In this document: one piece after another, positions 5,584 to 54,551 of the stretch
How the letters are laid out: every line of letters starts with the position of its first letter
Position numbering within the stretch: the first letter of the stretch is position 1
IMG/VR virus record: IMGVR_UViG_3300046787_000675
Span: 64,001-128,000 of that record
Direction: 5' to 3' (one strand)
Origin: a virus
DNA: 64,000 nt
Position numbers and translations under genes: made by a program
Notes under the pieces: generated by a model
Databases searched by the model: none
What the model was told of the DNA's origin: nothing
The model's input: the letters and a program-made list of their open reading frames with translations, nothing else

Positions 5584-7200
5584 TTATTCCTTTAATTTTG
5601 TTCTGTAATGATTTTCAATTAAGATGTTTATATCCTCCGGAATATATAACGCTTTTTTGGCTCTTGTACAAGCAACATACAATAAATTAGCTTCTTCTGT
5701 TCTAGAAAAAGAATACACAGTTGGAAGTAGATAATTCTTACTTACCTGTTTATTTTTTCTATTATCAGCCTCAATAAATGTATCAACGAAGTCTGTACTT
5801 ACTTCAACAACATCCCATTCTAGGCCTTTAGATCTATGTGCTGTTGTTAGAAGTATAACTGCTTTGTTTTCGGGGACTGCCTCAATCATTATTTTATTAA
5901 CAAGATTCGGAATGTCTTTCCCGTATCGTGCAGTTACTGATAATAATATCTGTGTAGCTACATCATCCGCCCCGGCAGCATAGGCTGCTAGAGATTTAAC
6001 CGCATCAAATGTTCTAATAAAAGAATTCTTTATATGTGCTTTTTTTCCTTCCGATAAATAGTGGACATCCAATACATCTTGCAATAAATCGGACGGCTTT
6101 CCTCCGGAAAAACCAAATGGGATTTTTTTAGCTAAACATATAGCAGCATTATCGAATAACTTGGCATTAGTACGCGTCAAAACAGTTCGTTTAAGCATTC
6201 CTATTGATGATCCTGGATATACAATATGCACACCCGGAGTAATAAGAGGATCAACTATATCGTTAGTTATGGTAGAGCTTAGCGGTACATCCTCATCCTT
6301 CCAGGACTTAAGGATTTTTGTTGCTAATCCGGCAATATAAGGAGGGAAACGGAATGTATACGAAAGTCTGTATTCTTCTGTTATGTTCTCTATATTGTCA
6401 AAGGCATTACAGCTACCTCTCCAGGAATAGATTTGTTGGTGCGGGTCTCCTACATAAAATTTGCATGAACTGGCTCTATTCACAATATCTAATGTAGCTG
6501 CATTAGCATCTTGTGCTTCGTCGTACATTATGTAGTCGTAATGTTTACCTAAATCCATACCTTTTAATTGATATAACTTTAAATAACCATCGTGTGTTAA
6601 TGGGAACGAATCCTCAAAGCTGATCATAACATTCCAGATATTTTTCGCTATGGTAAGGATGACAGCGTCTGGTATTTGTATACCCAATTTAGTCATATAA
6701 CTGTACGGAATGTTATTTTCATTTATTTCGCGGTCAGCTGATTGAGTATATTTATTAACTGTTAGCCAAGCTATATTTGTTAGGCCCCAGTCGACTATGT
6801 ATCGCGAACACCACAAATATACTTCCGATGACGCCTCTATCTCTTTAGATATTATTTTTCTAAGGATATACTCGACACATGTTTTTATTGATGTTTTATA
6901 AGGGTCGGTTATCATTTTGCCGGCTTCCCGGTATTGAGTACCTACGCTGGCGTATGCCAGTTGATGTGTGGTTACAACAGTAACTGTTCTAGGGAACTTT
7001 TGTTTGGCTTCTACTACAATATCTTTATTGTATGCCAAGTATAGTCCTTTCCACGAAGGCATTTTTTTACTTATGCTTTTAGTTAGTTCTACCAGTATAG
7101 TTGTTTTGCCACATCCGGCATAAGCTTTTATAGCTATTGTGTCGTCTTTATTGTACGACCGCTGGATAACAGCATTCTGTTCTGGTGTGTAGGATTTCAT
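5584..7200 (-). CDS. SF1 UvrD/Rep-like helicase
   Basis: AYAGCGKTT, YDEAQD, VGDPHQQIY, FRF, RTNA, TAHRSKGLEW, LLYVACTRAK. Confidence 0.92.
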   Translation of the reverse strand: MKSYTPEQNAVIQRSYNKDDTIAIKAYAGCGKTTILVELTKSISKKMPSWKGLYLAYNKDIVVEAKQKFPRTVTVVTTHQLAYASVGTQYREAGKMITDPYKTSIKTCVEYILRKIISKEIEASSEVYLWCSRYIVDWGLTNIAWLTVNKYTQSADREINENNIPYSYMTKLGIQIPDAVILTIAKNIWNVMISFEDSFPLTHDGYLKLYQLKGMDLGKHYDYIMYDEAQDANAATLDIVNRASSCKFYVGDPHQQIYSWRGSCNAFDNIENITEEYRLSYTFRFPPYIAGLATKILKSWKDEDVPLSSTITNDIVDPLITPGVHIVYPGSSIGMLKRTVLTRTNAKLFDNAAICLAKKIPFGFSGGKPSDLLQDVLDVHYLSEGKKAHIKNSFIRTFDAVKSLAAYAAGADDVATQILLSVTARYGKDIPNLVNKIMIEAVPENKAVILLTTAHRSKGLEWDVVEVSTDFVDTFIEADNRKNKQVSKNYLLPTVYSFSRTEEANLLYVACTRAKKALYIPEDINILIENHYRTKLKE

Positions 7201-8754: not shown

Positions 8755-9823
8755 TTTTGATCCTTGTATTTAACCATTCGGTCATTTCTTTTTTAGTTTC
8801 TTCATAGTTATGTATTGTTTCATTAGCATAGTGTTCAACTAATTCCTGCAATACTTTTTCAAATAGACATAGATTATCCATATGGATAAGCTGAGTATCG
8901 TCTGACGGGTCTGGGTTATCTATACCGGGTAATTGTAATCCGCTTATAGTTCGATTAATAGCATTAAAAGAACATGTGAATAAATCACCATTATCCCCAT
9001 GATAAATATGTAACATAAGAGATGCAGAACAAAGTAATTTACCTTGAGCTAATGCCATGGTTAATTCTTTGGACTGTGTTGGTCTATTCTCTGTTACTTT
9101 TATCTCTTTTCCGGATGTAGTCGAATTATCATCTGCTTTCACAGCTAAAGGTCCGTCTACAGCTGCAACAATAGTGAAATTAGTTGTTTTGATATATCGG
9201 TCGGTCTCTGCCCGGAATAATAACCATGTCAGCATCTCTGCCTCAATACCCTGATGTGATGCTTCGTCTGTATCTACAAGGCTTATTTTATTGTAAGCTT
9301 CGTTGTAAGACGTAAAGAAAAACATATTATCAAAAGATTCACTCAATAAATAAGAAACACTATCTGCTGTCTTTTCTGATGTAGTACAGATAAAGGCTTC
9401 TCCTCTCGAAGGAAATAAAAGCACAGTTACTGTTTTTACTTTTACAGGGGCATCTTTCTCTAATGTTTCTCTTACAGACTCTTTTATCTGTTTTAATTTA
9501 CTCTTAGATACATAAGATACATTGAATTCTTTTTTGAATCCTTCTTCTTGACGTTTAACTAATGCATCCATAGTCCCTTTATCAATCTGTTTTTCTACTG
9601 AGACAAACAGAAAGTTCAAACATCCGCCTATTTCTGTTTTGTCCTCTGTAAATTCGACATCACCAGGGAATGATGCAGACCATCCGCAACCTTCTTTTGT
9701 GATATCTTCTTTTCCGTGTTTTTTTAGTGCCTCGATTATACTTTCAGTATCAGTATATGAGGGAGTCCATCTATAATGGCTGTATCCTATTTTAGGGTAC
9801 TTGTCTTGTGTTTTCTTTCTCAT
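8744..9823 (-). CDS. rdgC: RdgC-like recombination-associated DNA-binding protein
   Basis: GCGW; EKQIDKGTMDALVKRQEE...VSKSKLKQIKESVRETL..DAP; TTSEKTADSVSYLLSESF; LTWLLFR; ALAQGKL. Confidence 0.7.
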   Translation of the reverse strand: MRKKTQDKYPKIGYSHYRWTPSYTDTESIIEALKKHGKEDITKEGCGWSASFPGDVEFTEDKTEIGGCLNFLFVSVEKQIDKGTMDALVKRQEEGFKKEFNVSYVSKSKLKQIKESVRETLEKDAPVKVKTVTVLLFPSRGEAFICTTSEKTADSVSYLLSESFDNMFFFTSYNEAYNKISLVDTDEASHQGIEAEMLTWLLFRAETDRYIKTTNFTIVAAVDGPLAVKADDNSTTSGKEIKVTENRPTQSKELTMALAQGKLLCSASLMLHIYHGDNGDLFTCSFNAINRTISGLQLPGIDNPDPSDDTQLIHMDNLCLFEKVLQELVEHYANETIHNYEETKKEMTEWLNTRIKNEQ

Positions 9824-9829
9824 GTTTAC

Positions 9830-9940
9830 TCACTTTTTTGTTTTTGACCATATTACGTGCATATACACCGTAAATACAAGCAACGGATAAAAAATAAAGA
9901 AAGCAAGTATATGTAACACAATGAATAAATAATTGACCAT
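9830..9940 (-). CDS. Small membrane protein, 36 aa (not in ORF track)
   Basis: MVNYLFIVLHILAFFIFYPLLVFTVYMHVIWSKTKK*: one hydrophobic helix and a basic tail; fills the intergenic gap. Confidence 0.55.
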   Translation of the reverse strand: MVNYLFIVLHILAFFIFYPLLVFTVYMHVIWSKTKK

Positions 9941-36339: not shown

Positions 36340-39300
36340 CTAAAAATATTTAATAATCAAATCGGACAAATATTGATCTCTCTCGCTATTTGTCAGAACA
36401 CGATTAAATAAAAGTATTTCTGCATAGTCGTATTGTCCGAAGTTAACCCCTATCGGGTCATCGTCCCGGACTAACGCACCGAATGTCAGGGTATCGTGGT
36501 CTACGGCATGGTCGGCTATATCTGTGTATTGTACCGTTTCGCTATTTATACGGAACGAAAGTAAATTACCGTTTAACTTTACATTGAATATATGAAGATT
36601 GTCCCCTACATCTGATGTATCGTTTATAACTTGCGGGATAAATGCCGCTGAGCGAATACTTGCAACGGAACCATTACTTAGATCTGTGTCTCTTGTACTT
36701 ATATATGAGTAAGAGTTGTTATTAGTATATTCCAACCAGTTCATAGCCGGAGTAAACGGCAAGGTACTACTATTTCTAATTACGAGAATAGCCTCCCATG
36801 TATTTCCGTCAAATACTGGAGCAGCACCATTTGCCTGGAAGTATTCGTTTAGACCATAACATCTAAGGGTATCATTCCCATTATACACTGCTGGTATTTG
36901 ATCAGGTCCTCCTACCGTCGTTACTACGTGTCCATTAGGAGATATATCGGTAAAACCGCTATTTCCTTCTATATGTAATGCAAGGGCATTTGGAGAAGAG
37001 ATAAATAAGTCATCAACATCAATTTCACTACCGGTAGTAGAGATGCTCCCAAAAGACGTCCCATCAGATGCGTTTAATGAAATATCAAGAAGTGTATCGT
37101 CGTTAGCTGTCATTTCCAATATCATAACAGCACCGCTTAATATAGCCGGAGACATAACAAATATATCTTTCGGTAGATTCTGATTGTATAATGTTTTTAT
37201 TTCCAGAGAAGTTAATCGTCTGGTGAACATAGATACAAAACACATGCTACCTACAAAATAATCGTCCATGGTTACAGGATTATAACCTATACACAAATCT
37301 GCGGTAGATATTATCGGGGCGGTTATAGTTCCTGTTTCAGTCTGTGTTACAGGTACTTCTATTCCGTCTATGTATATCTTAAAGACGTTGAAAGCATTCC
37401 AATCAACCGCAATACAATGCCATACATTATCGTTAAAGGTATCGTCTGTTGAGTATTCCTTTATTTCAGTATCAGCATCTTGACTTACTCTTGCGTATAT
37501 CTTTCCAAGAGCCATATAAATACTGTAATTATCTACTCCTGCTCCGGACGACATTTTGTTTATCAACTGCATTGTAGCGCTCGATACTGTTTTAATCCAC
37601 ATAACATGGGTTCTGTTACCGTCGCGAATATCAAGTAATACTGTGCTTGGAACAGTTACATAATTATCTACACCGTCAAATAGGAATGTCCCGAACTTTA
37701 AAGTCGACTCAACATTTATAAATGAACCTGTAATAGTTGGTACATTGATAAGTGTCGGGTTATGTTCGTAACCAGAATAATCTTCAAACTCCCTACCTAC
37801 AGCAATACCTGAATTAAGAGGTAGTGCAAGAACATAGTTGTTTCTAAAAGACGTATTATATCGCCATGGCTGTTTTGCTACAGTAGAATTATACAGTGTA
37901 GTTACATTACTTGGAGACAGCGCTGAATTAAATATCATAACTTCTGTCATGGATCCTTCCCATAATCCAGTACCAACATCCATAGCACCTACTAAGACAT
38001 TTGCTGTAGTGTTATGGATATCAGATGTATAAGGTACACTATCTTCTTCTATAGCGTCAACATATAATTTTACATCAGCCCCATCATATGTTCCTACTAA
38101 ATGATACCACGTATTTATTGTCGGTGTAATAGATGATACTGCTTCGGCATCTGCTGTACCTAAACCGTCACTAAATACTCTAAATACAAATGCACCGGCA
38201 ACATGCGCTAAATACCAACCGCGTTGATCACTTGAAGGTAGATGCTTCGAAATAGCATACATTGAACTTAATGTATCTAAATATACCCAACAAGAAACGG
38301 TTATATTATCTGTTATCTGTAAAGGAGTAGGGTTACCCACATCCAGATACTGGTCTACTCCATCTAGATAAAGGGTATTTACAAGTTCCTCTTCCGGAGT
38401 TACAGATTCACTTATACTACTGCCTCCGTCGCTACCTCCTGGCGGTCCTTCAGTAGATTCCCCACTACTACTACCACTACCGCCGCCTCCGCCGCCTCCT
38501 CCGCCGCCTCCATCGGAGGAAGAAGGAGGATCAGGCTCACAAGTAGCACAATCAGGATGGGTATCAGGTCCTTTCAAAATAAATGTAGTTTGTTCGCACG
38601 TAGCTGCGTCACACCAAGCTTGTTCTGTATTATTTGCAGCAGGTCGCTGATAACATCCGCCGTTTTGAAATAATACTGGTCCTGGGTTATAATTCCAGGA
38701 TTTTACAATATATGCCGGCCCAGCTCCTTGTTTACCTGCACAAGCCTGCCATTTAACGTTATAATTCTGTATAGCACGCGCACAATCGCATACAGTAGCG
38801 TGGGCCACTGCTGCGCCGCCTATATTCGGGGGATCTACTGTCCCTTCTAGTAACTCAAAACAGTTACCTAGATATGATATTATTGTTGGTTTACCTAATG
38901 CTGCCCAGTTAGCAAACGTCAGAATGAGGTCAGGTTCGCAATTTTTATATTCTTTAAACTTTATGTTTTTCTCTAGACATAAATCACAAGGTGCTAGAGG
39001 ATCTATATTATCGATACCTCCAAGGTCAATAGTAACATCACTGTAGACATGTGTTTCATCTTCTAGTGTATATTCTACAAAAACATAACAATTACCATTT
39101 ACCCCTTTAAAACTTTGATTTACATTAAGAAATACTGTATTTGGATCGAATATGTATATATCTAAAGGATTTTCGCAGTTATGCCATTTTTGGTTTTTAC
39201 CTATTGTGTCGTCGCACTCAGCACAATTTTCAAAAGAATCAGCAGTAATAACAGTTGGGGGATCGTTTGTTAATTCCTCAGTCCTATAGTAACAAACACC

Positions 39301-39345
39301 TTCTACTTTTATAACATTTCCTAAATTAGGCGCATTTATAGACAT
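36340..39345 (-). CDS. Fibre/adhesin: four Cys-rich modules, Gly/Ser linker, two LamG (ConA-like) domains and a third lectin-like domain
   Basis: LDGVDQYL..ITVSCWV..NTWYHLVGTYDG..LYVD..IFNSALS, repeated; GxCY..CxxC modules. Confidence 0.85.
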   Translation of the reverse strand: MSINAPNLGNVIKVEGVCYYRTEELTNDPPTVITADSFENCAECDDTIGKNQKWHNCENPLDIYIFDPNTVFLNVNQSFKGVNGNCYVFVEYTLEDETHVYSDVTIDLGGIDNIDPLAPCDLCLEKNIKFKEYKNCEPDLILTFANWAALGKPTIISYLGNCFELLEGTVDPPNIGGAAVAHATVCDCARAIQNYNVKWQACAGKQGAGPAYIVKSWNYNPGPVLFQNGGCYQRPAANNTEQAWCDAATCEQTTFILKGPDTHPDCATCEPDPPSSSDGGGGGGGGGGGSGSSSGESTEGPPGGSDGGSSISESVTPEEELVNTLYLDGVDQYLDVGNPTPLQITDNITVSCWVYLDTLSSMYAISKHLPSSDQRGWYLAHVAGAFVFRVFSDGLGTADAEAVSSITPTINTWYHLVGTYDGADVKLYVDAIEEDSVPYTSDIHNTTANVLVGAMDVGTGLWEGSMTEVMIFNSALSPSNVTTLYNSTVAKQPWRYNTSFRNNYVLALPLNSGIAVGREFEDYSGYEHNPTLINVPTITGSFINVESTLKFGTFLFDGVDNYVTVPSTVLLDIRDGNRTHVMWIKTVSSATMQLINKMSSGAGVDNYSIYMALGKIYARVSQDADTEIKEYSTDDTFNDNVWHCIAVDWNAFNVFKIYIDGIEVPVTQTETGTITAPIISTADLCIGYNPVTMDDYFVGSMCFVSMFTRRLTSLEIKTLYNQNLPKDIFVMSPAILSGAVMILEMTANDDTLLDISLNASDGTSFGSISTTGSEIDVDDLFISSPNALALHIEGNSGFTDISPNGHVVTTVGGPDQIPAVYNGNDTLRCYGLNEYFQANGAAPVFDGNTWEAILVIRNSSTLPFTPAMNWLEYTNNNSYSYISTRDTDLSNGSVASIRSAAFIPQVINDTSDVGDNLHIFNVKLNGNLLSFRINSETVQYTDIADHAVDHDTLTFGALVRDDDPIGVNFGQYDYAEILLFNRVLTNSERDQYLSDLIIKYF
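38474..38511 (-). repeat. GGN microsatellite encoding poly-Gly
   Basis: (CCG/CCT)n on the plus strand; poly-Gly run in the protein. Confidence 0.85.
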
Positions 39346-39351
39346 ATGTAT

Positions 39352-39882
39352 TTATCCTTGAAAAAAATAATCTCTAATACTGTCGTCAGTAAAATGATTA
39401 TAAGTTAGTAATGCAGTATCTGCAGTTTTATTGTTCATTATCTTATTATGTAGTTTAAAGTCTTGGACTACGTAGTTTATAGTTCTATTCATCAGTTCTT
39501 CTGTAGTAAAGATCATCGCGACAGTATCTGCTCTATAAAAGCCCTGATCTGTTGTATTAGGGTCATCGTCATAGACCTCCATATCAGTAACCGAGGCAAT
39601 GGTCTCTAATACCCTATTTGGATAAATTGTAAATTCAGGGACTACTTCGTATTCTGGTAAAGGAGGCATGACAGATATAGGATCCGGTAAAGATCCGCAC
39701 GGAACATATCTACCTACACGTTGTCGAGGTATACAGTTTTCCGGGGCGCGACATAGTAGGTCGTCTTGACATACAAATATTTTTAGATCCGATGTCTCTC
39801 CGTCATAACTGTGTTCTGTCTTAAATACAGCTAGAAAACTATATTCGTGTAATTCATATATTCTGTATATCTTTAATTGCAT
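39352..39882 (-). CDS. Virion-associated hypothetical protein (paralog of the next gene)
   Basis: IFVCQ..IASVTDMEVY..FYRADTVAMIF. Confidence 0.75.
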   Translation of the reverse strand: MQLKIYRIYELHEYSFLAVFKTEHSYDGETSDLKIFVCQDDLLCRAPENCIPRQRVGRYVPCGSLPDPISVMPPLPEYEVVPEFTIYPNRVLETIASVTDMEVYDDDPNTTDQGFYRADTVAMIFTTEELMNRTINYVVQDFKLHNKIMNNKTADTALLTYNHFTDDSIRDYFFQG

Positions 39883-40292
39883 TAGCAGCCATCTCCCGGT
39901 ACTATTTCTAGATTTGTAGGGGGGATGTTATTCAGACGAGTTATATCTGCTATTAAGATAGTAATTTGCTGTTCCATTAGTTTCCATGTATCTTCTAAAA
40001 ATGATCTAGATGTATGAACTATATCGATGTAATGTTTTCGGAAAAAAGGATTTTCAACGGAAGGATAGTCTTTAGGGAACGCTATTAATTCCTGGTACGA
40101 CGCGATATTTACAAAGATAGCATTTTCTTTACCTTCTTTATATAACGGGACTCCAGGATACATTTGGTAGACGAATATCTCGCCAGGTATATTATTCGTT
40201 GTTTCTTGTACCCATACCTTTAGCCGCCATCGCTTAGGGCCTTGTGTAGTTGATACAAATTCTTTACTTACTTTAAAAAAACTATTACTCAT
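39882..40292 (-). CDS. Virion-associated hypothetical protein
   Basis: IFVYQ..IASYQELIAF..FFRKHYIDIVH. Confidence 0.75.
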   Translation of the reverse strand: MSNSFFKVSKEFVSTTQGPKRWRLKVWVQETTNNIPGEIFVYQMYPGVPLYKEGKENAIFVNIASYQELIAFPKDYPSVENPFFRKHYIDIVHTSRSFLEDTWKLMEQQITILIADITRLNNIPPTNLEIVPGDGC

Positions 40293-40368
40293 TATTTTCC
40301 GTCTATCCTTTTTATAACTATACTGTCAGTAACTCTACTTGCCTACTTTATTTTATACTACATCCTTA

Positions 40369-41097
40369 CTAACTTACAACAAACGGGTTTGCAATTATAT
40401 ATGTATTGTCCGGTGAAGGAGAACAGATAAAACCTGCACTAACTATACCACTTGGTATTGCCGTCCATGTACCTATCGGGTCCAGTCCTTCTATATAGGA
40501 CAATGCTCCACCGAATGAATATTCCCATCTACATAATGTTTCATTAAAAGTTATCTCTGTGTATACTCCTGCTGTAGACCTTGTCCCGCATAAAGACCCG
40601 GAACCATCATAATCATTAATATTTCTGCTTAATGTTCCTCCGTATGTATTCAATGCAGTATTGGTTAATGTACCGGAAAGAATTTGTATTTCTCTAGGAA
40701 CATTAGCTGCTGTTCTGTATTGTATTTCGAAAGATATAGATAAACTACTTGGATATGTTACTATACCACAGTTACAGGTACAATCATCCTCAGTAAAATC
40801 CTCAATAAAAATTGTAGGTACCACTATTGACTCCTCTATAAATTTATAACAATCTCCGGCTAAAGGATATGTTATAAATTCTGCAGTCGTATCAAGTGTA
40901 ACATAGATTACAGTTTCCGGAAAACCGCATAATATATACTTTCTAGATAATATAGAATCAGCACAACATGATTCACAGGTATTGAACTCCCCCTGAAAAG
41001 TACCGGTATCCGGTGGACCTGCAGCCACAGTTGTTCTCTGATAACAGACACCATCTACACGTATAAATGCACCTAGATCTGGAAACACTTTAGGCAT
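40369..41097 (-). CDS. Cys-module adhesin-like protein
   Basis: DGVCYQR..CESCC; YILC..GDCYKF..CTCNC; beta-rich C-terminal domain. Confidence 0.75.
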   Translation of the reverse strand: MPKVFPDLGAFIRVDGVCYQRTTVAAGPPDTGTFQGEFNTCESCCADSILSRKYILCGFPETVIYVTLDTTAEFITYPLAGDCYKFIEESIVVPTIFIEDFTEDDCTCNCGIVTYPSSLSISFEIQYRTAANVPREIQILSGTLTNTALNTYGGTLSRNINDYDGSGSLCGTRSTAGVYTEITFNETLCRWEYSFGGALSYIEGLDPIGTWTAIPSGIVSAGFICSPSPDNTYIIANPFVVS

Positions 41098-41206
41098 ATT
41101 GAGTAAACTCTCTTCATTGTTTTAATTATATAATATAGTTCAACAGCAAATAATAAACTATAACCGTATAAATACTTTTTAAATATAACATTTTAATTCA
41201 TCTTTA

Positions 41207-42883
41207 TCAAAAATAACTGGTTCCTAATGGATCCCAGAGAACTTCAACACCAATAGTTACAGGTGTACATCCTGATGGTCCTGGTGAAGGATCCCCTAAA
41301 CTTATAGTACCACTATAAGAATCCCCTTCTCCGAATGGGAGGGATATAGCAGGAGAGGCGTAGGCTTGTTGTGTAAATTCTAGACCTAAAGCTGGATTGT
41401 TATAAATAAGGACGGTAAATGGAAATTGATATCCGGGATCCGGTGATATATCTCCGCCTCCAAAACCGCATGGGTTTGAATCCGTAGCGGTTATATTCCA
41501 TACCGCCCCGCCGTAAGATTCTCCTGAGTATGATTGTCGTCTGTGCCCATTAGCTATGTAATCAACACCGTTATATGTAACTTTAATATTCCATCTAGGG
41601 AATGGGTTTGTATCTGTGTCACAATCTGTACAGTTCAGATATCCTATCATAGTTTCTACCTGTTCTGGTGTTAATACAGGGTCACTTGTATATGTAAAAC
41701 CACCAAATTCATAACATACTCCATCATATTTCCATGCACCTACAGATCCCCAATCCTCATCATAAGAATCTAGGGTAGCATCTAAAGCTACGTATAGAGG
41801 TGTACCACCACCACAAGGGACAAAGTATTGTACTTCTGGAGGACATCCTTCTGAATAACAACTCCCAGACCCACTCATATCAATAGGTGTCCACGTTACC
41901 GCATCAGGAGTACCTCCATAAGTATAGACGCCTGTAGAAGTATAGCATTGCCCATCTATCATAATAATAAAGTATTCACCATTATATATTCGATAACAGT
42001 CTATACCTAGATCTGTAGAGAGTATATTGACAGTGGTAAGATAATCAGAGCAACTAGAAAATTGTATAGTACAAGCACAACTACAATCATCTATTGTATA
42101 AGGATCCGTAGTATCCACAGCCGTCATACTGTAATCGACGAATTCAAAACAAGTTCCGTAATATGTTATAGTAGCTGCTGGTGACGGTACTATAGGTACG
42201 AATATAGAGTAGATGTGATCACAATCAATGTACTCTAATGAATTACCTGCAGGAGTACTAGAAGAACTACTAGCGCAGCACTCTTCATAGTTGTAATATA
42301 TTTCAGAAGACGAGGAACTATCAGCGCAGCACTCTTCATAGTTGTAATATATTTCAGAAGACGAGGAACTATCTTGAGAAGATAATGATTGAGAACTGCA
42401 TTCAGAATAAACATAAATAGGTGTAGATGAGCTTGATGAACTATGCGAACTGTCTGAACTAGTAACGGATGAGCCATCTCCGCTACATTCAGAATAAACA
42501 TAAATAAGCTCTGATGATGAATAAGATGATGACTCTGAAGGCTGACTAGAAGGTGTATTACTGCTACCGCTACATTCAGAATAAACATATATCGGTTCTG
42601 AAGATGAAGAGGATGGGACAGTAGAAGACTGGCTAGACGGAGTACTGCTTCCTTCACTACATTCAGAATAAATATAGATAAGCTCAGACGACCCTGATCC
42701 AGAACTATCTTGGCTTGAGCTATATTGACTTGAACTATCCGAACTAGGATTATTGGATGTATCTGAGCTACTAGAGGCACATATTAATATTCCCGAACCA
42801 TCACATCTTAATTGACAACTGCCATCCTCGACAAGGATAGCAACATTCTCTATTGTTTTTCCTCCCGCACCTATAAATGCCAT
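41207..42883 (-). CDS. Ser-rich/Cys-module fibre or scaffold protein
   Basis: Six YxYxEC motifs in poly-Ser spacers, then three full Cys modules and a beta-rich C-terminal domain. Confidence 0.8.
   Translation of the reverse strand: MAFIGAGGKTIENVAILVEDGSCQLRCDGSGILICASSSSDTSNNPSSDSSSQYSSSQDSSGSGSSELIYIYSECSEGSSTPSSQSSTVPSSSSSEPIYVYSECSGSSNTPSSQPSESSSYSSSELIYVYSECSGDGSSVTSSDSSHSSSSSSTPIYVYSECSSQSLSSQDSSSSSEIYYNYEECCADSSSSSEIYYNYEECCASSSSSTPAGNSLEYIDCDHIYSIFVPIVPSPAATITYYGTCFEFVDYSMTAVDTTDPYTIDDCSCACTIQFSSCSDYLTTVNILSTDLGIDCYRIYNGEYFIIMIDGQCYTSTGVYTYGGTPDAVTWTPIDMSGSGSCYSEGCPPEVQYFVPCGGGTPLYVALDATLDSYDEDWGSVGAWKYDGVCYEFGGFTYTSDPVLTPEQVETMIGYLNCTDCDTDTNPFPRWNIKVTYNGVDYIANGHRRQSYSGESYGGAVWNITATDSNPCGFGGGDISPDPGYQFPFTVLIYNNPALGLEFTQQAYASPAISLPFGEGDSYSGTISLGDPSPGPSGCTPVTIGVEVLWDPLGTSYF
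42272..42373 (-). repeat. Exact 51-bp tandem duplication (DSSSSEIYYNYEECCA-type unit)
   Basis: 42272-42322 is identical to 42323-42373. Confidence 0.9.
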
Positions 42884-42894
42884 AACACTCTCCT

Positions 42895-44178
42895 TTAGCA
42901 GCAGTATTTAACTTTTGCGTCATAAGTGTTATTAGGAAGCTCTAATACATAACATACATGAATAGGGGAATCACATGCCGCTAAAGCCAAGGCTAATTCA
43001 GCAGTTAAGAAGGCATTGTTTATTGCGTCCTCAAAAGTAGGACCATTTTCTGTTACTTCCGTACTTGTTCCTCCAGGAGGGCATATATCCACATCAGGAG
43101 GACATATATTATTACAAGGTGCAAGTCCTAGAACAGCAGCTGCGTCATCACACGTATTTCCTTTACCGTCTGGAGCTACAGGTGCGGCAAAACCGTCAAC
43201 TAAAACAACATTACCTTGGTAATCGGTATTAATAACCAATACCTCCGGATCATCCGGCGGAACCTCATAATTATTACCTGCAAATGGACCTGGACGAGGA
43301 GGTAAGACATCCCATTGAATATCCGATAATTTACCGTCGTGTATAACTAGATTCGCCCAGTAAACTTTTAGTGTTCCTGCCTCGGTACATCCTATATCCA
43401 CAACTACCGGGATAAGACCTAAAGGTTCTTTCTTGGCTCCGGCTGTGTCTGGTGCCGCGTCATGCGTATCTATTCGTGGCCATAAAGGAAACTCCAGATA
43501 ACGCATCGTATATTTACCTGGTTCATTAGGATCCGGAAGACAACACCATCTAGGGTATCCGGATTGGCGTTGGAAGCTCTCATCCCTATCTACTTGTCTA
43601 AGGGTGTAATCTTTTTCTGGCCTTTCTCTCCGTTGTAAGTGTAACTCGCCATTTACCACCTCCGCTATAATACTGTTCTCTTTACCATCCGGACAACAGG
43701 TATTAGGCAAAGGAGGACCGTCTGGATTTTTTTCTCGGACACTAAAAGGTAATGGTGTAACTGTTGTGGGTATATAAAACCATGGAAGAGGATCGATTGT
43801 CGGGAATCGCGGTCTACCGGTAATTAACCGAATCATGTCTATGCCGTCCCCTTGACAGAAACACTGATCGGCATATATAAGGATGGCTTCTTTTTCCGGT
43901 GTACTTAATTTGTTCCACAGGTTAGGGTAATCCGGATCATATGACACACCGTCCAACACAGAATAATTATCATTAAAAGGAATAGTATCGATGTCGGACT
44001 GTTCTCCGAAATGATAAGGGAAACTGGCAAGATGTTCTGAACTTGGCGGGTAAACATAACATGTAGGTTTCTCAAACGGTGTTAAGATAAAACTATCGTA
44101 ACATTCGTTCGTGTTCCCTACATCTCTGTATACGGCACCGTTGCCTATGTTAAAAGGTGACCCATATAATCTGCGCAC
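42895..44178 (-). CDS. Pro/Cys-rich tail-fibre-associated protein
   Basis: 427 aa; CFC, CC, CNNICPPDVDIC; ends YCC. Confidence 0.7.
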   Translation of the reverse strand: MRRLYGSPFNIGNGAVYRDVGNTNECYDSFILTPFEKPTCYVYPPSSEHLASFPYHFGEQSDIDTIPFNDNYSVLDGVSYDPDYPNLWNKLSTPEKEAILIYADQCFCQGDGIDMIRLITGRPRFPTIDPLPWFYIPTTVTPLPFSVREKNPDGPPLPNTCCPDGKENSIIAEVVNGELHLQRRERPEKDYTLRQVDRDESFQRQSGYPRWCCLPDPNEPGKYTMRYLEFPLWPRIDTHDAAPDTAGAKKEPLGLIPVVVDIGCTEAGTLKVYWANLVIHDGKLSDIQWDVLPPRPGPFAGNNYEVPPDDPEVLVINTDYQGNVVLVDGFAAPVAPDGKGNTCDDAAAVLGLAPCNNICPPDVDICPPGGTSTEVTENGPTFEDAINNAFLTAELALALAACDSPIHVCYVLELPNNTYDAKVKYCC

Positions 44179-44181
44179 GAG

Positions 44182-44970
44182 TTACTGCCTTTTTCTTATC
44201 TTTATGCTGCCTGGTTCTTTATCAATATATAACGCTGATGAAACTTCTAAAGGAATGTCACCGTTTACCGGTAACAGACCGTTTATAACATATACTCCGT
44301 CGGGTAGAGAATTAATAGTTGGTTCTTCACACATTTCAGGATTTGTATTACCTAAATTAGGCATTTTACCTTTACCTATTCCTTGAGATGCTGTGAATGT
44401 TAAATTGTTATCTTCATAAGAAACAACACAGTTATATCCATCCTTAAACTTTATGACATCTGTAGGGAGATCTTGGATATTGAGAATATCGATTAGTGTG
44501 TCTGTATCTTCAACACTGTTACACCGTGTTATGTTTTGAAATACTATCGCCTCAATAAATTCTATATGCCATTGCACTCTTGCTGACTCTATTTCTAGGG
44601 GAGTATTAATAGGGAACAAAGAAGTAGATATAGGCGTTTTATAAGATAATACACCCGACACATAACCGCCTAAAGATCCGACAGTTATTATATCTCCTTT
44701 AATTGTTACATCCGGTAGAATAAATGTATAATCCCAGTAGTCTCCATTAATATAAATAGATCTAAAATTTAAAGTAACTTCGTTAGATGCTTCCGTCGCG
44801 GACATTAAATAAGTTATAGGATAATCAACCGGAGTTGTTGTATCGGTAGGTTCTCCCTGTATTACGATGTATATGTCTAATATACTTGCGGCAAATGTTT
44901 TTATGTCCCCCGATAAAATAGGGACAAAAGGATAATCTCCCTGGGATGAAAAATGTCTATTTAAACTCAT
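44182..44970 (-). CDS. Fibre-base paralog family member
   Basis: YPF; FKDGYN; VINGLLPVNGDI. Confidence 0.7.
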   Translation of the reverse strand: MSLNRHFSSQGDYPFVPILSGDIKTFAASILDIYIVIQGEPTDTTTPVDYPITYLMSATEASNEVTLNFRSIYINGDYWDYTFILPDVTIKGDIITVGSLGGYVSGVLSYKTPISTSLFPINTPLEIESARVQWHIEFIEAIVFQNITRCNSVEDTDTLIDILNIQDLPTDVIKFKDGYNCVVSYEDNNLTFTASQGIGKGKMPNLGNTNPEMCEEPTINSLPDGVYVINGLLPVNGDIPLEVSSALYIDKEPGSIKIRKRQ

Positions 44971-45680
44971 GAAGTTATATCCTTAGCTTGTTGGAATATT
45001 AAGGCTTTATTAGTCTTTATCCTTAGGTTTGCCTCAGGCGTAGCGTTCAACCATATATGTTTGCTTGTTACACCGTTTACACTTTTTATCTGTCCTTGTG
45101 AAGAATCAACAAGAGACGGGTCTTCACCTAATACATCCAGAGACAACACATTGTCATCCAGAGTCCATTGAACACCGTGCCGGGCTATAATATTAACTGC
45201 TCCCCATGCTGCTTGATTATCTGTGTGAATGTATCGTATAAAAGATGTACGATAGACTTTGCAGGTGTCTATATGTAAGGTAGCCTCGCCTGGAACAATA
45301 TTGAAATATCTCCCTTGTGCATTTGTTACTAATCTTCCGGCTCCTAAACTATCTAGGACCAATATACCTATATTTAGTCCTGCATCGTTATAGACATTTG
45401 CTTTTGTGTCTCCGGAAGCAAAAACGCACACGCCTGCGTTTTTGTTATCTGCATCTGTAAAAATTAATTTTATCTCGTTTTCTTCGCCGTATGTCCCGTC
45501 TATTACAGTTAAACTTATAGGTAAGGTAACCGGCGATTTAAAATAAAAATGTGCATCCAGGAAAACATCGTTACCGATGTATAACTCGTCCAGTTCTTCT
45601 CGGAAGAACGCGTCGAACGGATAAGGAACCGTTAATACAGTATCTCTAAAACTCTGGTTTCTAATTACGTAATTAGGCAT
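44967..45680 (-). CDS. Fibre-base paralog family member
   Basis: YPF; IKSVNGV. Confidence 0.7.
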   Translation of the reverse strand: MPNYVIRNQSFRDTVLTVPYPFDAFFREELDELYIGNDVFLDAHFYFKSPVTLPISLTVIDGTYGEENEIKLIFTDADNKNAGVCVFASGDTKANVYNDAGLNIGILVLDSLGAGRLVTNAQGRYFNIVPGEATLHIDTCKVYRTSFIRYIHTDNQAAWGAVNIIARHGVQWTLDDNVLSLDVLGEDPSLVDSSQGQIKSVNGVTSKHIWLNATPEANLRIKTNKALIFQQAKDITS

Positions 45681-45690
45681 AAAAACTCCT

Positions 45691-46302
45691 TTAGACTACA
45701 ACAGTCCAACCTCTACTTATTAAAATATCTATGTAGGCGTCACCTACAACACTTGGCGGAGCATTATTATCTATATTCAGTATGCCGCCTGTTTTGTTAT
45801 GGGATACAAGTGTAGAGAGAAGATTGTCAATACTCAACATATTGAGACTATTATTGTTAATGATTATTGTTGTTATATTTATAAAGTTTGACAAATCAAT
45901 AGTTGTTATTTCCATACCGGCAGCTACTATACCGGTAAAGTGCTCAAGGTTACCTTCGTCGACAACATTAATGTTATTAGGTGTGCTTACATATAAATGT
46001 GATGGGTTATTGGTTTCATCTACAGGTGAACTGTCATTCCATTCCCATTTTAATACATCTGTGTTATCTGTTCCGACTACAAAATTTATATCTGTAGCGT
46101 CTGAAGAGAATAGAAAAACAGAAGGGAGATCCCCACAATCAGAACTGCAACTAGAAGATATTCCCATGCAGTCTTCGCAGGACTCATGAGTACTATCTAT
46201 AATTGTGTGTGTTATAGGACCGGAAACTACTTCGGCAAGTTCGTAGCATTGACCTTCATGTTTAATAAATCTTGCTCCGGTATAAGGGACGAATATATCC
46301 AT
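45691..46302 (-). CDS. Cys module plus PKD-like and short LRR-like adhesin
   Basis: EGQCYEL..CEDC; WEWNDSS..NNPSHLY; IDLSNFINITTIIINNNSL; ends RGWTVVV. Confidence 0.7.
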   Translation of the reverse strand: MDIFVPYTGARFIKHEGQCYELAEVVSGPITHTIIDSTHESCEDCMGISSSCSSDCGDLPSVFLFSSDATDINFVVGTDNTDVLKWEWNDSSPVDETNNPSHLYVSTPNNINVVDEGNLEHFTGIVAAGMEITTIDLSNFINITTIIINNNSLNMLSIDNLLSTLVSHNKTGGILNIDNNAPPSVVGDAYIDILISRGWTVVV

Positions 46303-46312
46303 AAATTTTTCC

Positions 46313-47239
46313 TTACTCGCTACTGCTGCTAGAAGAGTTATCTATATGGGTATATAGGGTCCCTACTTCATTATTGTTCTCATTATAAATTACCTCTTTA
46401 TAGATATTTTGACAAGATGGCTCCTCTGGGGTCTCAGATGACTCCGATGATTCGGAAGGGGCACATGGATCGTCTTCATTAGGTTGAGCAGGGAAATAAA
46501 TATCTAGAGGTAACGATATATTGTCTCCTGCTCCTTCGTCTCCCCTATCGATATCTGTACTGTTTACAGGGGCGCATTCTTCCATACACCCTATAATATC
46601 AATATCTATGTTTCCGTTTTCGTCGGGCGGAGTATTTGCAATAGTGTATATAAGCGGGTCTTGATTTACTTTTACATCTCTATCAAGAAACGATACTAAA
46701 CTGAGTTCATCTAATTCATCGTCATTCCTATCTATAAAAATATTACTACCTTCAATAGTTATGTTTAACAATGAATTCGCGCTTAATAGTTTAAGTGCGT
46801 TATCCAATGAATAAGTCAAACCGTTTATTTCTATTGTATATGTTGTAGACATATTAGGTGCAGATATAACTACCTCATCTTCTAACGCGACACTTACCTG
46901 TCCACTATAATAACCTTGTCTTTCCAGTGCGCCCGGCCCGAACATAACATACCCGTGACCTAATACATCCATTTCCAGAGGATAGATTAAACCCGGCTGA
47001 GGATCCTCTACAAGAACATATGCTATCGGGATATTATTGGTTAAGTCTTCTAAAATGACAACAACAAATCCTATACCTACACGCAAGCATGTTAAAACAG
47101 GCTGTATAGATGGAGGGACTGTTAAAGATAACCCTGTTAATATATCGTTAGGGATATCTTCTGTATGGGTATCAATTAGAGGAAATTTAACGTCTGCATT
47201 ATTACTATATAAATTAGGATTTTCTGACATATTAGGCAC
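46313..47239 (-). CDS. Fibre-base paralog family member
   Basis: NADVKFPL; IYTIANTPPDENGNI; CMEEC. Confidence 0.7.
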   Translation of the reverse strand: MPNMSENPNLYSNNADVKFPLIDTHTEDIPNDILTGLSLTVPPSIQPVLTCLRVGIGFVVVILEDLTNNIPIAYVLVEDPQPGLIYPLEMDVLGHGYVMFGPGALERQGYYSGQVSVALEDEVVISAPNMSTTYTIEINGLTYSLDNALKLLSANSLLNITIEGSNIFIDRNDDELDELSLVSFLDRDVKVNQDPLIYTIANTPPDENGNIDIDIIGCMEECAPVNSTDIDRGDEGAGDNISLPLDIYFPAQPNEDDPCAPSESSESSETPEEPSCQNIYKEVIYNENNNEVGTLYTHIDNSSSSSSE

Positions 47240-52994: not shown

Positions 52995-54551
52995 TTATAC
53001 TTCCTTTAGGGAAACATCTATAAGATCCAGGCTAGAAAAGAATTTAACATTTCCTGCCGTTACACCTTCGAATTCTACTGGTACCTCAATATTATTATTG
53101 TCGGAGGTGTGTCCAATAGTACCGTCCGGTAAATAAATTGTTCCGTGCATTCTTATAGGCATTTTAACATTTGCAGAAGGGAATAATTTTTTTATCGCAT
53201 AAACTACATCCGATGCGGGGAACGAAGATTTACCTGCTTTCTGTGTATTGACCGCAGCAGCTATTTCGGATTTTATAGAGGTTATATCCGGAGGAACAAC
53301 ACCGGAAAAATAATCTACAGAAACTCCTATTGATATTTCAATAGGTATAAAAGCTTTAATAAGTATATCGCCTATAGCTGTCTGTATCTCGTTATCTTCG
53401 ATATAAGTCTGCAGTTCGTCTATGTTAGGCATATATAATATCTCTAGAATATAATCCTTAGTCGTATCTACAGTAGCTTCCGTGTTCTCGTCGAAAAAAT
53501 AAACAGATAGAATCTGGTACCGGCTATACCGCGCTTCCTGTTCGTTTTTTATATATGGTCTGGTATTCGTACTGCTATATCCCAATACATGTTGGATGGG
53601 GGTATCTATTATATTTGTTCCAGAACGTATGCTTTTTACAGCGTAGGCACCGGCATATAAAGACGAAGGAACGGTAACTGTCCATTGTGTACCTTCTACA
53701 CGGGTAGCTGTCAAAGGAATCAATATCTTCTGTATAACTGGGTTAGTGCTTACATATGCATCGGATCGTCCTCCGCTCGATATACCTGTTACTGGATGTC
53801 TATCGCGGATTTGTACTTCATCGCCGAAACCAAATACTTGTACATCAAGAACATTATAAGGCGAATTAGTGAGCAGGGATCTGATATTGTCTTTACCCGT
53901 GGCGGATTCAGCTGTGATTCCTAATTTTGCGCGGTCTATGAGGTCTTCTGTTGTTTCCGGTAAACTACCTCCGCTGAAGGTAGACGATGTCTCCATTTTC
54001 TTAATATATGTCGAAGATAGGTTATGTGTGCATACTTGTCCTGGAGACAACACAATATCTGTAGGTTGTTTGCTTATTACTTCGATCTGCATTACCCTGG
54101 TTGTGTTATTAACCTCTAATGCCTTGATATAAGACACCTGTGTAGTATCCTGTTCTGTAATCAAACCTAAAGCACCTATAAATGTAGTTGTCGGAGAAAA
54201 TTGTATACCTGCGCATGTTATAATTGTTCCCGCGGGTATAGCAACAGAAGAGGCTCCTGAAAAATAAACAGATATAAAACCTGTTGAGCGTGTACCTTCT
54301 TTACGAGTAACATTGAAATTTGAGAGAAGTAAATCTACAAGCTCTTCGTCTGGACTATCCGAATTTAATACCTGGAACAATGACATATTATTCTTCAATG
54401 TATCTATTTCAGTATCTCTATTACTTAAATTAACAGCCCATGGTTTAATAATCTGCTCATGGAATACGCCTCCTATAGACCAATCATAGGTAGGGAAATA
54501 TTCTTCTAATGTTCTCTTTAATTCTTCTTCATTTTCTTTTAGCGTAGCCAT
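52995..54551 (-). CDS. Baseplate J/gp6-like wedge protein
   Basis: NFNVTRKEGTRSTG, IPAGT, FSGGSLPETTEDLIDR, GGRSDAYV. Confidence 0.85.
   Translation of the reverse strand: MATLKENEEELKRTLEEYFPTYDWSIGGVFHEQIIKPWAVNLSNRDTEIDTLKNNMSLFQVLNSDSPDEELVDLLLSNFNVTRKEGTRSTGFISVYFSGASSVAIPAGTIITCAGIQFSPTTTFIGALGLITEQDTTQVSYIKALEVNNTTRVMQIEVISKQPTDIVLSPGQVCTHNLSSTYIKKMETSSTFSGGSLPETTEDLIDRAKLGITAESATGKDNIRSLLTNSPYNVLDVQVFGFGDEVQIRDRHPVTGISSGGRSDAYVSTNPVIQKILIPLTATRVEGTQWTVTVPSSLYAGAYAVKSIRSGTNIIDTPIQHVLGYSSTNTRPYIKNEQEARYSRYQILSVYFFDENTEATVDTTKDYILEILYMPNIDELQTYIEDNEIQTAIGDILIKAFIPIEISIGVSVDYFSGVVPPDITSIKSEIAAAVNTQKAGKSSFPASDVVYAIKKLFPSANVKMPIRMHGTIYLPDGTIGHTSDNNNIEVPVEFEGVTAGNVKFFSSLDLIDVSLKEV

What the first reader, a model, noticed from the sequence alone, without database searches (positions are those of the whole stretch)
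36340..46302. Possible split-domain 'scaffoldin' for plug-in receptor-binding proteins
Seen: a ~50-aa module recurs in four genes, with the pattern [Y/W/F]xxC, a hydrophobic strand, GxC[YF], then Cx1-2C. Examples: KWHNC..GNCYVF..CDLC, KYILC..GDCYKF..CTCNC, EYIDC..GTCFEF..CSCAC, YFVPC..GVCYEF..CTDC. Three proteins (39345-36340, 41097-40369, 46302-45691) start with this module lacking exactly the first strand and its Cys: MSINAP..EGVCYY..CAEC, MPKVFP..DGVCYQ..CESC, MDIFVP..EGQCYE..CEDC. MDIFVP matches the second strand SIFVP of a full module. Protein 42883-41207 carries six isolated first strands (IYIYSEC, IYVYSEC x3, YYNYEEC x2) in Ser-rich spacers with no rest of the module. The three truncated proteins have different C-terminal payloads: LamG domains, a beta-rich domain, and PKD/LRR-like. 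Inference: orphan strands complete the truncated modules in trans by donor-strand complementation, locked by an intermolecular disulfide or shared Zn site. That would give a branched, exchangeable adhesin array analogous to cohesin-dockerin. I know of no description of this in phages, but could not search.
Basis: partly seen in the sequence, partly recalled or inferred. Interest (0 to 1): 0.9.

Follow-up and report, generated by a model that had tools for sequence, protein, structure and literature searches.

The report
Split cysteine module docking phage fibres
Several tail-fibre proteins of this uncultured 160-kb phage start with a small cysteine module lacking its first strand, and a serine-rich neighbour carries six spare copies of that strand, which suggests, without proving, a new plug-in system for attaching exchangeable host-recognition proteins.

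Summary
A ~55-aa four-Cys module occurs seven times in full form in p1001, p242 and p558. A form lacking strand 1 and Cys1 heads p1001, p242 and p203, and p558 starts with a degenerate variant. p558 carries six isolated strand-plus-Cys motifs in Ser-rich spacers.

A profile search of 1.84 billion proteins found an unnamed, metagenome-only family. About 40 proteins start with the three-Cys open form, followed by unrelated C-terminal domains. Internal copies keep Cys1.

The isolated strands are selected: 86-100% identity against 36-55% for the spacers. They recur in three diverged relatives, and in further contigs as looser aromatic-x-x-Cys forms. They lie mostly in the gene upstream of an open-module gene (5/34 against 3/429, Fisher p 8e-5; criterion set post hoc).

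In one contig the module is split between two adjacent genes at the strand 1/strand 2 loop.

Trans completion is therefore the best reading, at about 0.5, but it is not shown:
- An AF2 surrogate that linked the two halves in one chain did not dock the strand.
- One relative has an open module with no isolated strand nearby.
- Neither Zn nor disulfide was tested.

Another first-stage note of this scan (e1-5731411) covers the same stretch; none was seen on other DNA.

The parts
46162..46302 (-). Open (three-Cys) N-terminal module of p203, residues 1-47. Strand 1 and Cys1 are absent.
   Evidence: An in-frame stop lies 14 codons upstream.
45691..46161 (-). p203 payload, LRR-like by eye and of no known family.
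   Evidence: The L001 gene at the same position shares only the first ~45 aa.
42898..43032 (-). C-terminal four-Cys mini-motif of p427, ending V-K-Y-C-C, directly upstream of p558.
   Evidence: Conserved in 12 homologues down to 31% identity. Its role in docking is an inference.
42773..42883 (-). p558 N-terminal three-Cys variant, residues 1-37.
   Evidence: It is shared with the L001 727-aa protein, where only the first 30 aa align.
42659..42679 (-). Isolated strand 1 of p558 (I-Y-I-Y-S-E-C).
42572..42592 (-). Isolated strand 2 (I-Y-V-Y-S-E-C).
42485..42505 (-). Isolated strand 3 (I-Y-V-Y-S-E-C).
42398..42418 (-). Isolated strand 4 (I-Y-V-Y-S-E-C).
42326..42349 (-). Isolated strand 5 (Y-Y-N-Y-E-E-C-C).
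   Evidence: It lies in the 51-nt repeat.
42275..42298 (-). Isolated strand 6 (Y-Y-N-Y-E-E-C-C).
   Evidence: It lies in the 51-nt repeat.
41615..42241 (-). Three full four-Cys modules of p558 (residues 215-272, 272-348, 350-423).
41207..41614 (-). p558 C-terminal domain of no known family.
40960..41097 (-). Open N-terminal module of p242, residues 1-46.
   Evidence: An in-frame stop lies 9 codons upstream.
40765..40947 (-). Full module of p242, residues 51-111.
40369..40764 (-). p242 payload of no known family. It has no homologue among 5.8 billion clustered proteins.
39208..39345 (-). Open N-terminal module of p1001, residues 1-46.
   Evidence: An in-frame stop lies 2 codons upstream.
38536..39195 (-). 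Three full modules of p1001 (residues 51-125, 130-191, 196-270).
36340..38535 (-). Gly/Ser linker and LamG-type payload of p1001.
   Evidence: PF13385 at E 6e-41 in two stretches, and PF02210.

Best explanation
The region encodes the exchangeable host-recognition set of a myovirus-like phage, built on a previously undescribed ~55-aa cysteine module.

The full module has these parts in order:
- strand 1 ending in Cys1
- a tight turn
- strand 2
- a hairpin carrying G-x-C2-[YF]
- a C3-x-x-C4 pair at the start of a short helix

p203, p242 and p1001 begin with an open form that starts at strand 2 and keeps only C2, C3 and C4. Each continues into a different C-terminal binding domain.

p558 acts as a scaffold. 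Its Ser-rich stalk carries six short aromatic strands, each ending in Cys.

The proposed mechanism is as follows. Each stalk strand pairs with the unpaired N-terminal strand 2 of an open module, so the split falls in the strand 1/strand 2 hairpin loop. The strand's Cys then completes the four-Cys cluster, as a shared Zn site or as a disulfide. In this way several receptor-binding proteins are fastened to one scaffold.

Shown: the modules, their open N-terminal form across the family, selection on the isolated strands, and their genomic association.

Inferred: the physical pairing, the stoichiometry and the chemistry of the lock.
For: 1. About 40 proteins from unrelated contigs start with the open module within about 10 residues of Met. 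The three Cys are invariant, and the downstream domains are unrelated. Internal copies keep Cys1, and about four in five also have an aromatic residue three positions before it.

2. Ser-rich linkers sit before strand 1, not after it, so strand 1 belongs to the module that follows it.

3. Between the window and its relative L001, structural neighbours are 48-63% identical. The fibre-like genes share only their first ~45 aa.

4. The p558 counterparts in L001 and L011 have quite different spacers and C-terminal domains. They still carry six and five isolated strands, most ending Y-S-E-C.

5. Within p558 the strands are 86-100% identical, with synonymous Ile and Cys codon differences. The spacers are 36-55% identical.

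6. By a fixed rule (aromatic-x-x-Cys flanked by low-complexity linker, or at the C-terminus), p558 is the only hit in the 51.8k residues of the genome. Across 23 contigs the rule hits 5 of 34 genes directly upstream of an open-module gene, against 3 of 429 other genes (Fisher p 7.6e-5).

7. In L015/L016, seen in two independent assemblies, a 980-aa protein in tail-tip position ends with a full module followed by a terminal K-W-V-S-C. The next gene starts 30 nt later, after a single TAA and a GGGAG ribosome-binding site and in the same frame. It starts with the open module.

8. In the siphovirus-like L012-L014 there are two isolated strands and two open modules, laid out as a possible chain. 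L018, L020, L034 and L036 show the same neighbourhood.

9. In L021 the scaffold counterpart has no isolated strands, and the p242-type and p1001-type genes are also absent. This is a joint loss.

10. In the AF2 model of an open module, the extreme N-terminal hydrophobic strand has no partner, and the C-x-x-C pair sits at a helix start.
Against: - No structure or binding test supports the pairing.
- AF2 on a natural chain carrying an open module, a Ser linker and an isolated strand left the strand as coil at pLDDT about 58. The whole model reached only a mean pLDDT of 63.
- Sequence likeness between the isolated strands and true first strands is little more than aromatic-x-x-Cys. A position matrix ranks them 7th to 265th of 720 Cys windows.
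- L021 keeps a 57-aa stand-alone p203-type open module with no isolated strand within 10 kb.
- p203, p1001 and several L001 genes are not directly downstream of a strand-bearing gene.
- The numbers of strands and open modules do not match in the window (6 against 3) or in L001 (6 against 4).
- The association rule was written after some of the data had been seen.
- Some proteins carry both halves, so completion within one chain is possible.
Confidence: 0.5

Rival explanations
1. The open module is a self-sufficient N-terminal anchor. It seats each receptor-binding protein on a conserved baseplate or fibre protein through another surface. The fourth metal ligand would be water, an acidic side chain or a partner residue. 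The strands in p558 are unrelated nodes that bundle or cross-link the chains of its own Ser-rich stalk.
For: - L021 has an open module and no isolated strands.
- The p203-type gene always sits between the p308 and p237 homologues, away from the scaffold gene.
- An acidic residue two positions before C2 is common in open modules.
- Likeness between the isolated strands and strand 1 is weak.
Against: - It does not explain why the N-terminal copies always lack exactly strand 1 and Cys1.
- It does not explain the module split across two genes in L015.
- It does not explain the matching counts in L012.
- It does not explain why strand-bearing genes are enriched next to open-module genes.
Confidence: 0.25
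2. Completion happens within one chain. The isolated strand folds back over the Ser linker onto the open module of the same protein, which amounts to a circular permutation. The many strands of p558 would be spares or serve its own degenerate N-terminal module.
For: The L011 359-aa protein, three L018 proteins and P0016 carry an open module followed by a linker and a strand in the same chain.
Against: - p558, the L001 727-aa protein, the L020 882-aa protein, the L036 690-aa protein and the L015 980-aa protein carry isolated strands without a canonical open module; p558 and the L001 727-aa protein have only the degenerate N-terminal variant.
- p203, p242, p1001 and many others have an open module and no strand of their own.
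- AF2 did not fold the strand back in the one case tried.
Confidence: 0.1
3. The isolated strands are decayed leftovers of modules caught in expanding Ser-rich tandem repeats, and they have no function.
For: They lie in DNA tandem repeats, one pair being a nearly perfect 51-nt duplication.
Against: - Strand identity is 86-100% against 36-55% for the spacers, with synonymous codon changes.
- Y-S-E-C is kept in three diverged phages whose spacers share nothing.
Confidence: 0.05

Closest known systems
Donor-strand complementation and exchange in chaperone-usher pili (Fim and Pap subunits)
   Same: A domain lacks one beta-strand, and another polypeptide supplies it. Proteins that carry both halves could form chains.
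   Different: - The pilin is an Ig-like fold lacking its C-terminal strand, and the donor is an N-terminal extension.
- Here a ~55-aa Cys module lacks its N-terminal strand, and the donors are internal or C-terminal.
- There is no periplasmic chaperone or usher.
- A Cys lock is proposed here.
- There is no sequence relation.
Cohesin-dockerin scaffoldins of cellulosomes
   Same: One scaffold carries several docking sites separated by low-complexity linkers, and it takes proteins with a common small docking module and varied payloads.
   Different: - The docking site here is a 7-10-aa strand, not a 150-aa cohesin.
- The plug is a three-Cys module, not a Ca-binding dockerin.
- There are no Pfam hits to either family.
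Branched receptor-binding complexes of phages (CBA120 TSP1-4, G7C gp63.1/gp66, Klebsiella anchor-branch systems, T4 gp10-like XD domains)
   Same: Several receptor-binding proteins have conserved N-terminal attachment parts and swapped C-terminal domains, and they are mounted on one another.
   Different: - Those systems use trimeric gp10-like or XD domains or conserved peptides.
- No such domain is detected here.
- A split-domain strand donation has, to my knowledge and in the searched literature, not been reported for them.
Intermolecular Zn(Cys)4 sites: the CD4/CD8-Lck zinc clasp and the Rad50 zinc hook
   Same: Short Cys-bearing segments of two chains share one metal site that holds them together.
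   Different: Those sites are 2+2 Cys. Here 3+1 is proposed, together with strand pairing. Metal binding was not tested.

Membership tests
Cys module family defined here (no Pfam, PHROG or source name) | G-x-C-[YFW] hairpin followed 15-60 aa later by C-x(1-4)-C, with Cys1 15-45 aa before C2, usually preceded by an aromatic residue (aromatic-x-x-Cys1) | tested here: met
   There are seven full copies in the window. The profile finds 36 proteins at E<=1e-3 among 1.84 billion, two of them visible false positives.
Open N-terminal variant of that family | Starts within about 10 aa of Met at strand 2, has three invariant Cys, and lacks strand 1 and Cys1 | tested here: met
   p203, p242 and p1001 meet it. 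So do 27 further sequences in A2 and about 12 more from a metagenome scan.
Chaperone-usher donor-strand complementation | Ig-like pilin fold lacking its C-terminal G strand | tested here: not met
   There is no pilin, usher or chaperone family hit. The missing strand here is N-terminal.
Chaperone-usher donor-strand complementation | The donor is an N-terminal extension of the next subunit | tested here: not met
   The donors here are internal, in Ser-rich linkers, or C-terminal. One is N-terminal, in L020.
Cohesin-dockerin | Cohesin (PF00963) and dockerin (PF00404) domains | tested here: not met
   The Pfam scan of all ten proteins at E<=0.1 gives only LamG-type hits in p1001.
T4 gp10-like / XD-domain branched tailspike anchors | gp10-like N-terminal domains detectable by profile | tested here: not met
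   No PHROG or Pfam hit in the N-terminal parts.
Zn(Cys)4 structural site | Four Cys clustered around a metal | not testable with these tools
   There are only indirect hints. C-x-x-C sits at a helix start in a model of mean pLDDT 63. An Atlas neighbour with a metal-binding Cys cluster scores TM 0.56 over 51 aa. No PDB fold match was found.

The most novel reading that the evidence does not exclude
A split four-Cys domain serves as a general plug-and-socket for phage receptor-binding proteins. Short strand-plus-Cys sockets sit in Ser-rich scaffold stalks, or at the C-terminus of a tail-tip protein. They complete the three-Cys open module at the N-terminus of each receptor-binding protein in trans, and a shared Zn site or a disulfide locks the pair. 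Proteins with both halves build chains. The system would be used by both myovirus-like and siphovirus-like uncultured phages.
Probability: 0.45. Interest if true: 0.85.

Novelty: new variant of a known kind. Interest (0 to 1): 0.72.

Why it matters
How phages mount several exchangeable receptor-binding proteins decides their host range. It is also the basis of attempts to understand and re-target them.

The known attachment parts are large trimeric domains. A 45-aa plug and a 7-10-aa socket would be a much smaller docking pair, and they would come from a family with no name in any database.

It would also explain how fibre genes can be split, shuffled and chained without losing attachment. One example of such a split is caught here.

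The family is easy to recognise in sequence, so tail-fibre genes in uncultured phage contigs could be annotated from it.

Tried and rejected
- AF2 of p242 from a single sequence failed, at pLDDT 31.
- AF2 of the natural L011 chain (open module, linker, strand) with a 31-row alignment gave a moderate module model and no docking. I read this as inconclusive.
- Adding the strand rows to that alignment made MAFFT misalign the C-x-x-C half of the modules onto the strands, so they were left out.
- Foldseek against PDB and VIA-align wide gave no match. The Atlas search gave only weak rows.
- Megablast of the region against phage records found nothing. p242 has no homologue by word search. The baseplate J protein found no relative in IMG/VR.
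- The DNA pattern scan of GTDB genomes gave only chance hits or other families, so no host could be named.
- I first read the p427 C-terminus (V-K-Y-C-C) as a terminal socket for p558. It proves to be part of a conserved four-Cys mini-motif of its own, so I keep it only as a possibility.
- The idea that 'strand 1' belongs to the preceding module was rejected from the positions of the linkers.
- Hidden upstream starts or read-through for the three window genes were rejected.
- No sulfotransferase is present in this genome.


Full report
**What is there.** The window lies in a 160,705-bp single-contig virus record. The finding sits downstream of a baseplate J-like gene at 52995-54551, where myoviruses keep their fibre genes.
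- MAFFT aligns seven full modules and the three N-terminal copies. G and C of the G-x-C-[YF] motif are invariant, and the N-terminal copies begin just after strand 1 and Cys1.
- A six-frame profile scan of the whole genome finds the module only in these four genes.
- In-frame stops lie 2, 9 and 14 codons upstream of the three starts, which excludes a longer N-terminus.
- p558 also begins with a degenerate three-Cys variant.
- Pfam and PHROGs recognise only the LamG part of p1001.

**The family.** A profile of the eleven copies, run against 1.84 billion representative proteins, gave 36 hits at E<=1e-3. Two are visible false positives. All real hits are metagenomic and unnamed.
- Wherever the module stands at a protein's N-terminus, it starts within about 10 residues of Met at strand 2 and has three invariant Cys. 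This holds for the 30 sequences in A2 and about 12 more from a metagenome pattern scan.
- One clear exception starts with a full module, in L011. A few variants carry an early extra Cys.
- Internal copies keep Cys1, usually preceded by an aromatic residue three positions earlier.
- Ser-rich linkers lie before strand 1. Strand 1 therefore belongs to the module that follows it, and the N-terminal copies are truly incomplete.

**Exchangeable payloads.** L001 is a syntenic relative on a 98.6-kb contig.
- Structural neighbours are 48-63% identical to the window's.
- The fibre-like genes align only over their first ~45 aa (30 aa for p558), and after that the domains differ.
- This is the usual signature of a conserved attachment part with swapped receptor-binding ends.

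**The isolated strands.**
- The window's six strands lie in an 87-nt and a 51-nt tandem repeat.
- Among the four 29-aa units, the strand is 86-100% identical at the protein level, with synonymous Ile and Cys codon differences. The spacers are 36-55% identical. This confirms the exact 87-bp spacing noted elsewhere in the scan. The spacing is not kept in L001 or L011.
- The scaffold counterparts in L001 (727 aa) and L011 (522 aa) share neither spacers nor C-terminal domain with p558. They still hold six and five such strands, most ending Y-S-E-C.
- By a fixed rule, p558 is the only hit in the genome's 51.8k residues.
- A position matrix trained on true first strands from other contigs ranks the window's strands only 7th to 265th of 720 Cys windows. 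Likeness beyond aromatic-x-x-Cys is therefore weak.

**Association of the two halves.**
- In L015/L016 a 980-aa protein in tail-tip position ends with a full module and then a terminal strand-plus-Cys. The next gene follows after a single TAA, a ribosome-binding site and 30 nt, in the same frame, and it begins with the open module. The module is thus cut at the strand 1/strand 2 loop between two genes.
- In the siphovirus-like L012-L014, the gene after the presumed distal-tail and tail-tip genes that follow the tape measure carries one isolated strand. The next gene has an open module plus one isolated strand, and the gene after that has an open module. That makes two sockets and two plugs in gene order.
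- L018 has four consecutive open-module genes, and the first three have a strand after their Ser linker.
- L020, L034 and L036 show strand-bearing genes directly upstream of open-module genes.
- Over 23 contigs, 5 of 34 genes directly upstream of an open-module gene meet the strict rule, against 3 of 429 others (Fisher p 7.6e-5). The rule was set after part of the data had been seen.
- L021 cuts both ways. It lacks the isolated strands and also the p242-type and p1001-type genes, yet it keeps a 57-aa stand-alone p203-type open module.

**Structure.**
- AF2 on a natural L011 chain holding an open module, a Ser linker and a strand gave a mean pLDDT of 63. The module shows three strands and a short helix starting at C-x-x-C. 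Its N-terminal hydrophobic strand is unpaired, and the isolated strand stays coil at pLDDT about 58. This does not decide the question.
- No solved fold matched.

**Mechanism and standing.**
- I take trans completion as the best single reading, at about 0.5. The isolated strand pairs with the N-terminal strand 2 of an open module, and its Cys completes the cluster.
- That the open module is a shared attachment part for exchangeable receptor-binding proteins I hold at about 0.9.
- The lock (Zn or disulfide), the stoichiometry and the oligomeric state are inferences.
- It works like donor-strand complementation and like a scaffoldin, but it is a member of neither family.
- Four literature searches found no description of it.

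Noticed in passing
L001:7273-8178; L009:1338-2480; L011:2913-3983; L012:541-1212; L015:5210-6445; L019:1125-2459; L021:14553-15455: Sulfotransferase-like genes sit inside or beside the fibre gene clusters of seven related contigs. Six have PF00685 and/or PF13469 hits on record (several only weak or faint); the L021 gene has none and was recognised by eye. This genome has none. The isolated strands are Tyr flanked by acidic residues, which resembles tyrosine-sulfation sites. I did not test this.
   Followed up: partly
window 42898-43032 (p427 C-terminus): The p427 family ends in a conserved four-Cys motif whose last residues are V-K-[YW]-C-C in most members (A-F-C-C or similar in the three most distant). 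It is kept in 12 homologues down to 31% identity and lies just upstream of the scaffold gene.
   Followed up: partly
L001:3950-6133, 6168-6905, 9181-9939; L011:281-1849, 1851-2882; L015:4471-5175; L054:5379-6134; P0017, P0031, P0037: Many open-module proteins end in the same unknown C-terminal domain, closing with W-x-[KR]-G-x-x-W. It is a second recurrent part of this system.
   Followed up: no
window 39352-39882 (p176): p176 is a conserved small protein (54% identical in L001) with four Cys within 30 aa. These include G-R-Y-V-x-C-G-x-x-P-D-P, which resembles a first strand. Its stop and the p1001 start are in the same frame, two codons apart.
   Followed up: no
L021:3919-4092: This is a 57-aa gene consisting of nothing but a p203-type open module. 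A separate LamG gene lies just upstream of it.
   Followed up: partly
window 46313-47239 (p308) and L001:1-217: The protein upstream of the p203-type gene ends in a Ser- or Ser/Gly-rich tail without Cys in both phages, after a conserved V-G-T-L-Y-T-H.
   Followed up: no
L003, L004, L006-L008, L030, L031, L042, L048: An unrelated 73-aa membrane-like protein family shares the peptide V-I-K-V-D-G-K-C-Y and turned up in the pattern scans.
   Followed up: no
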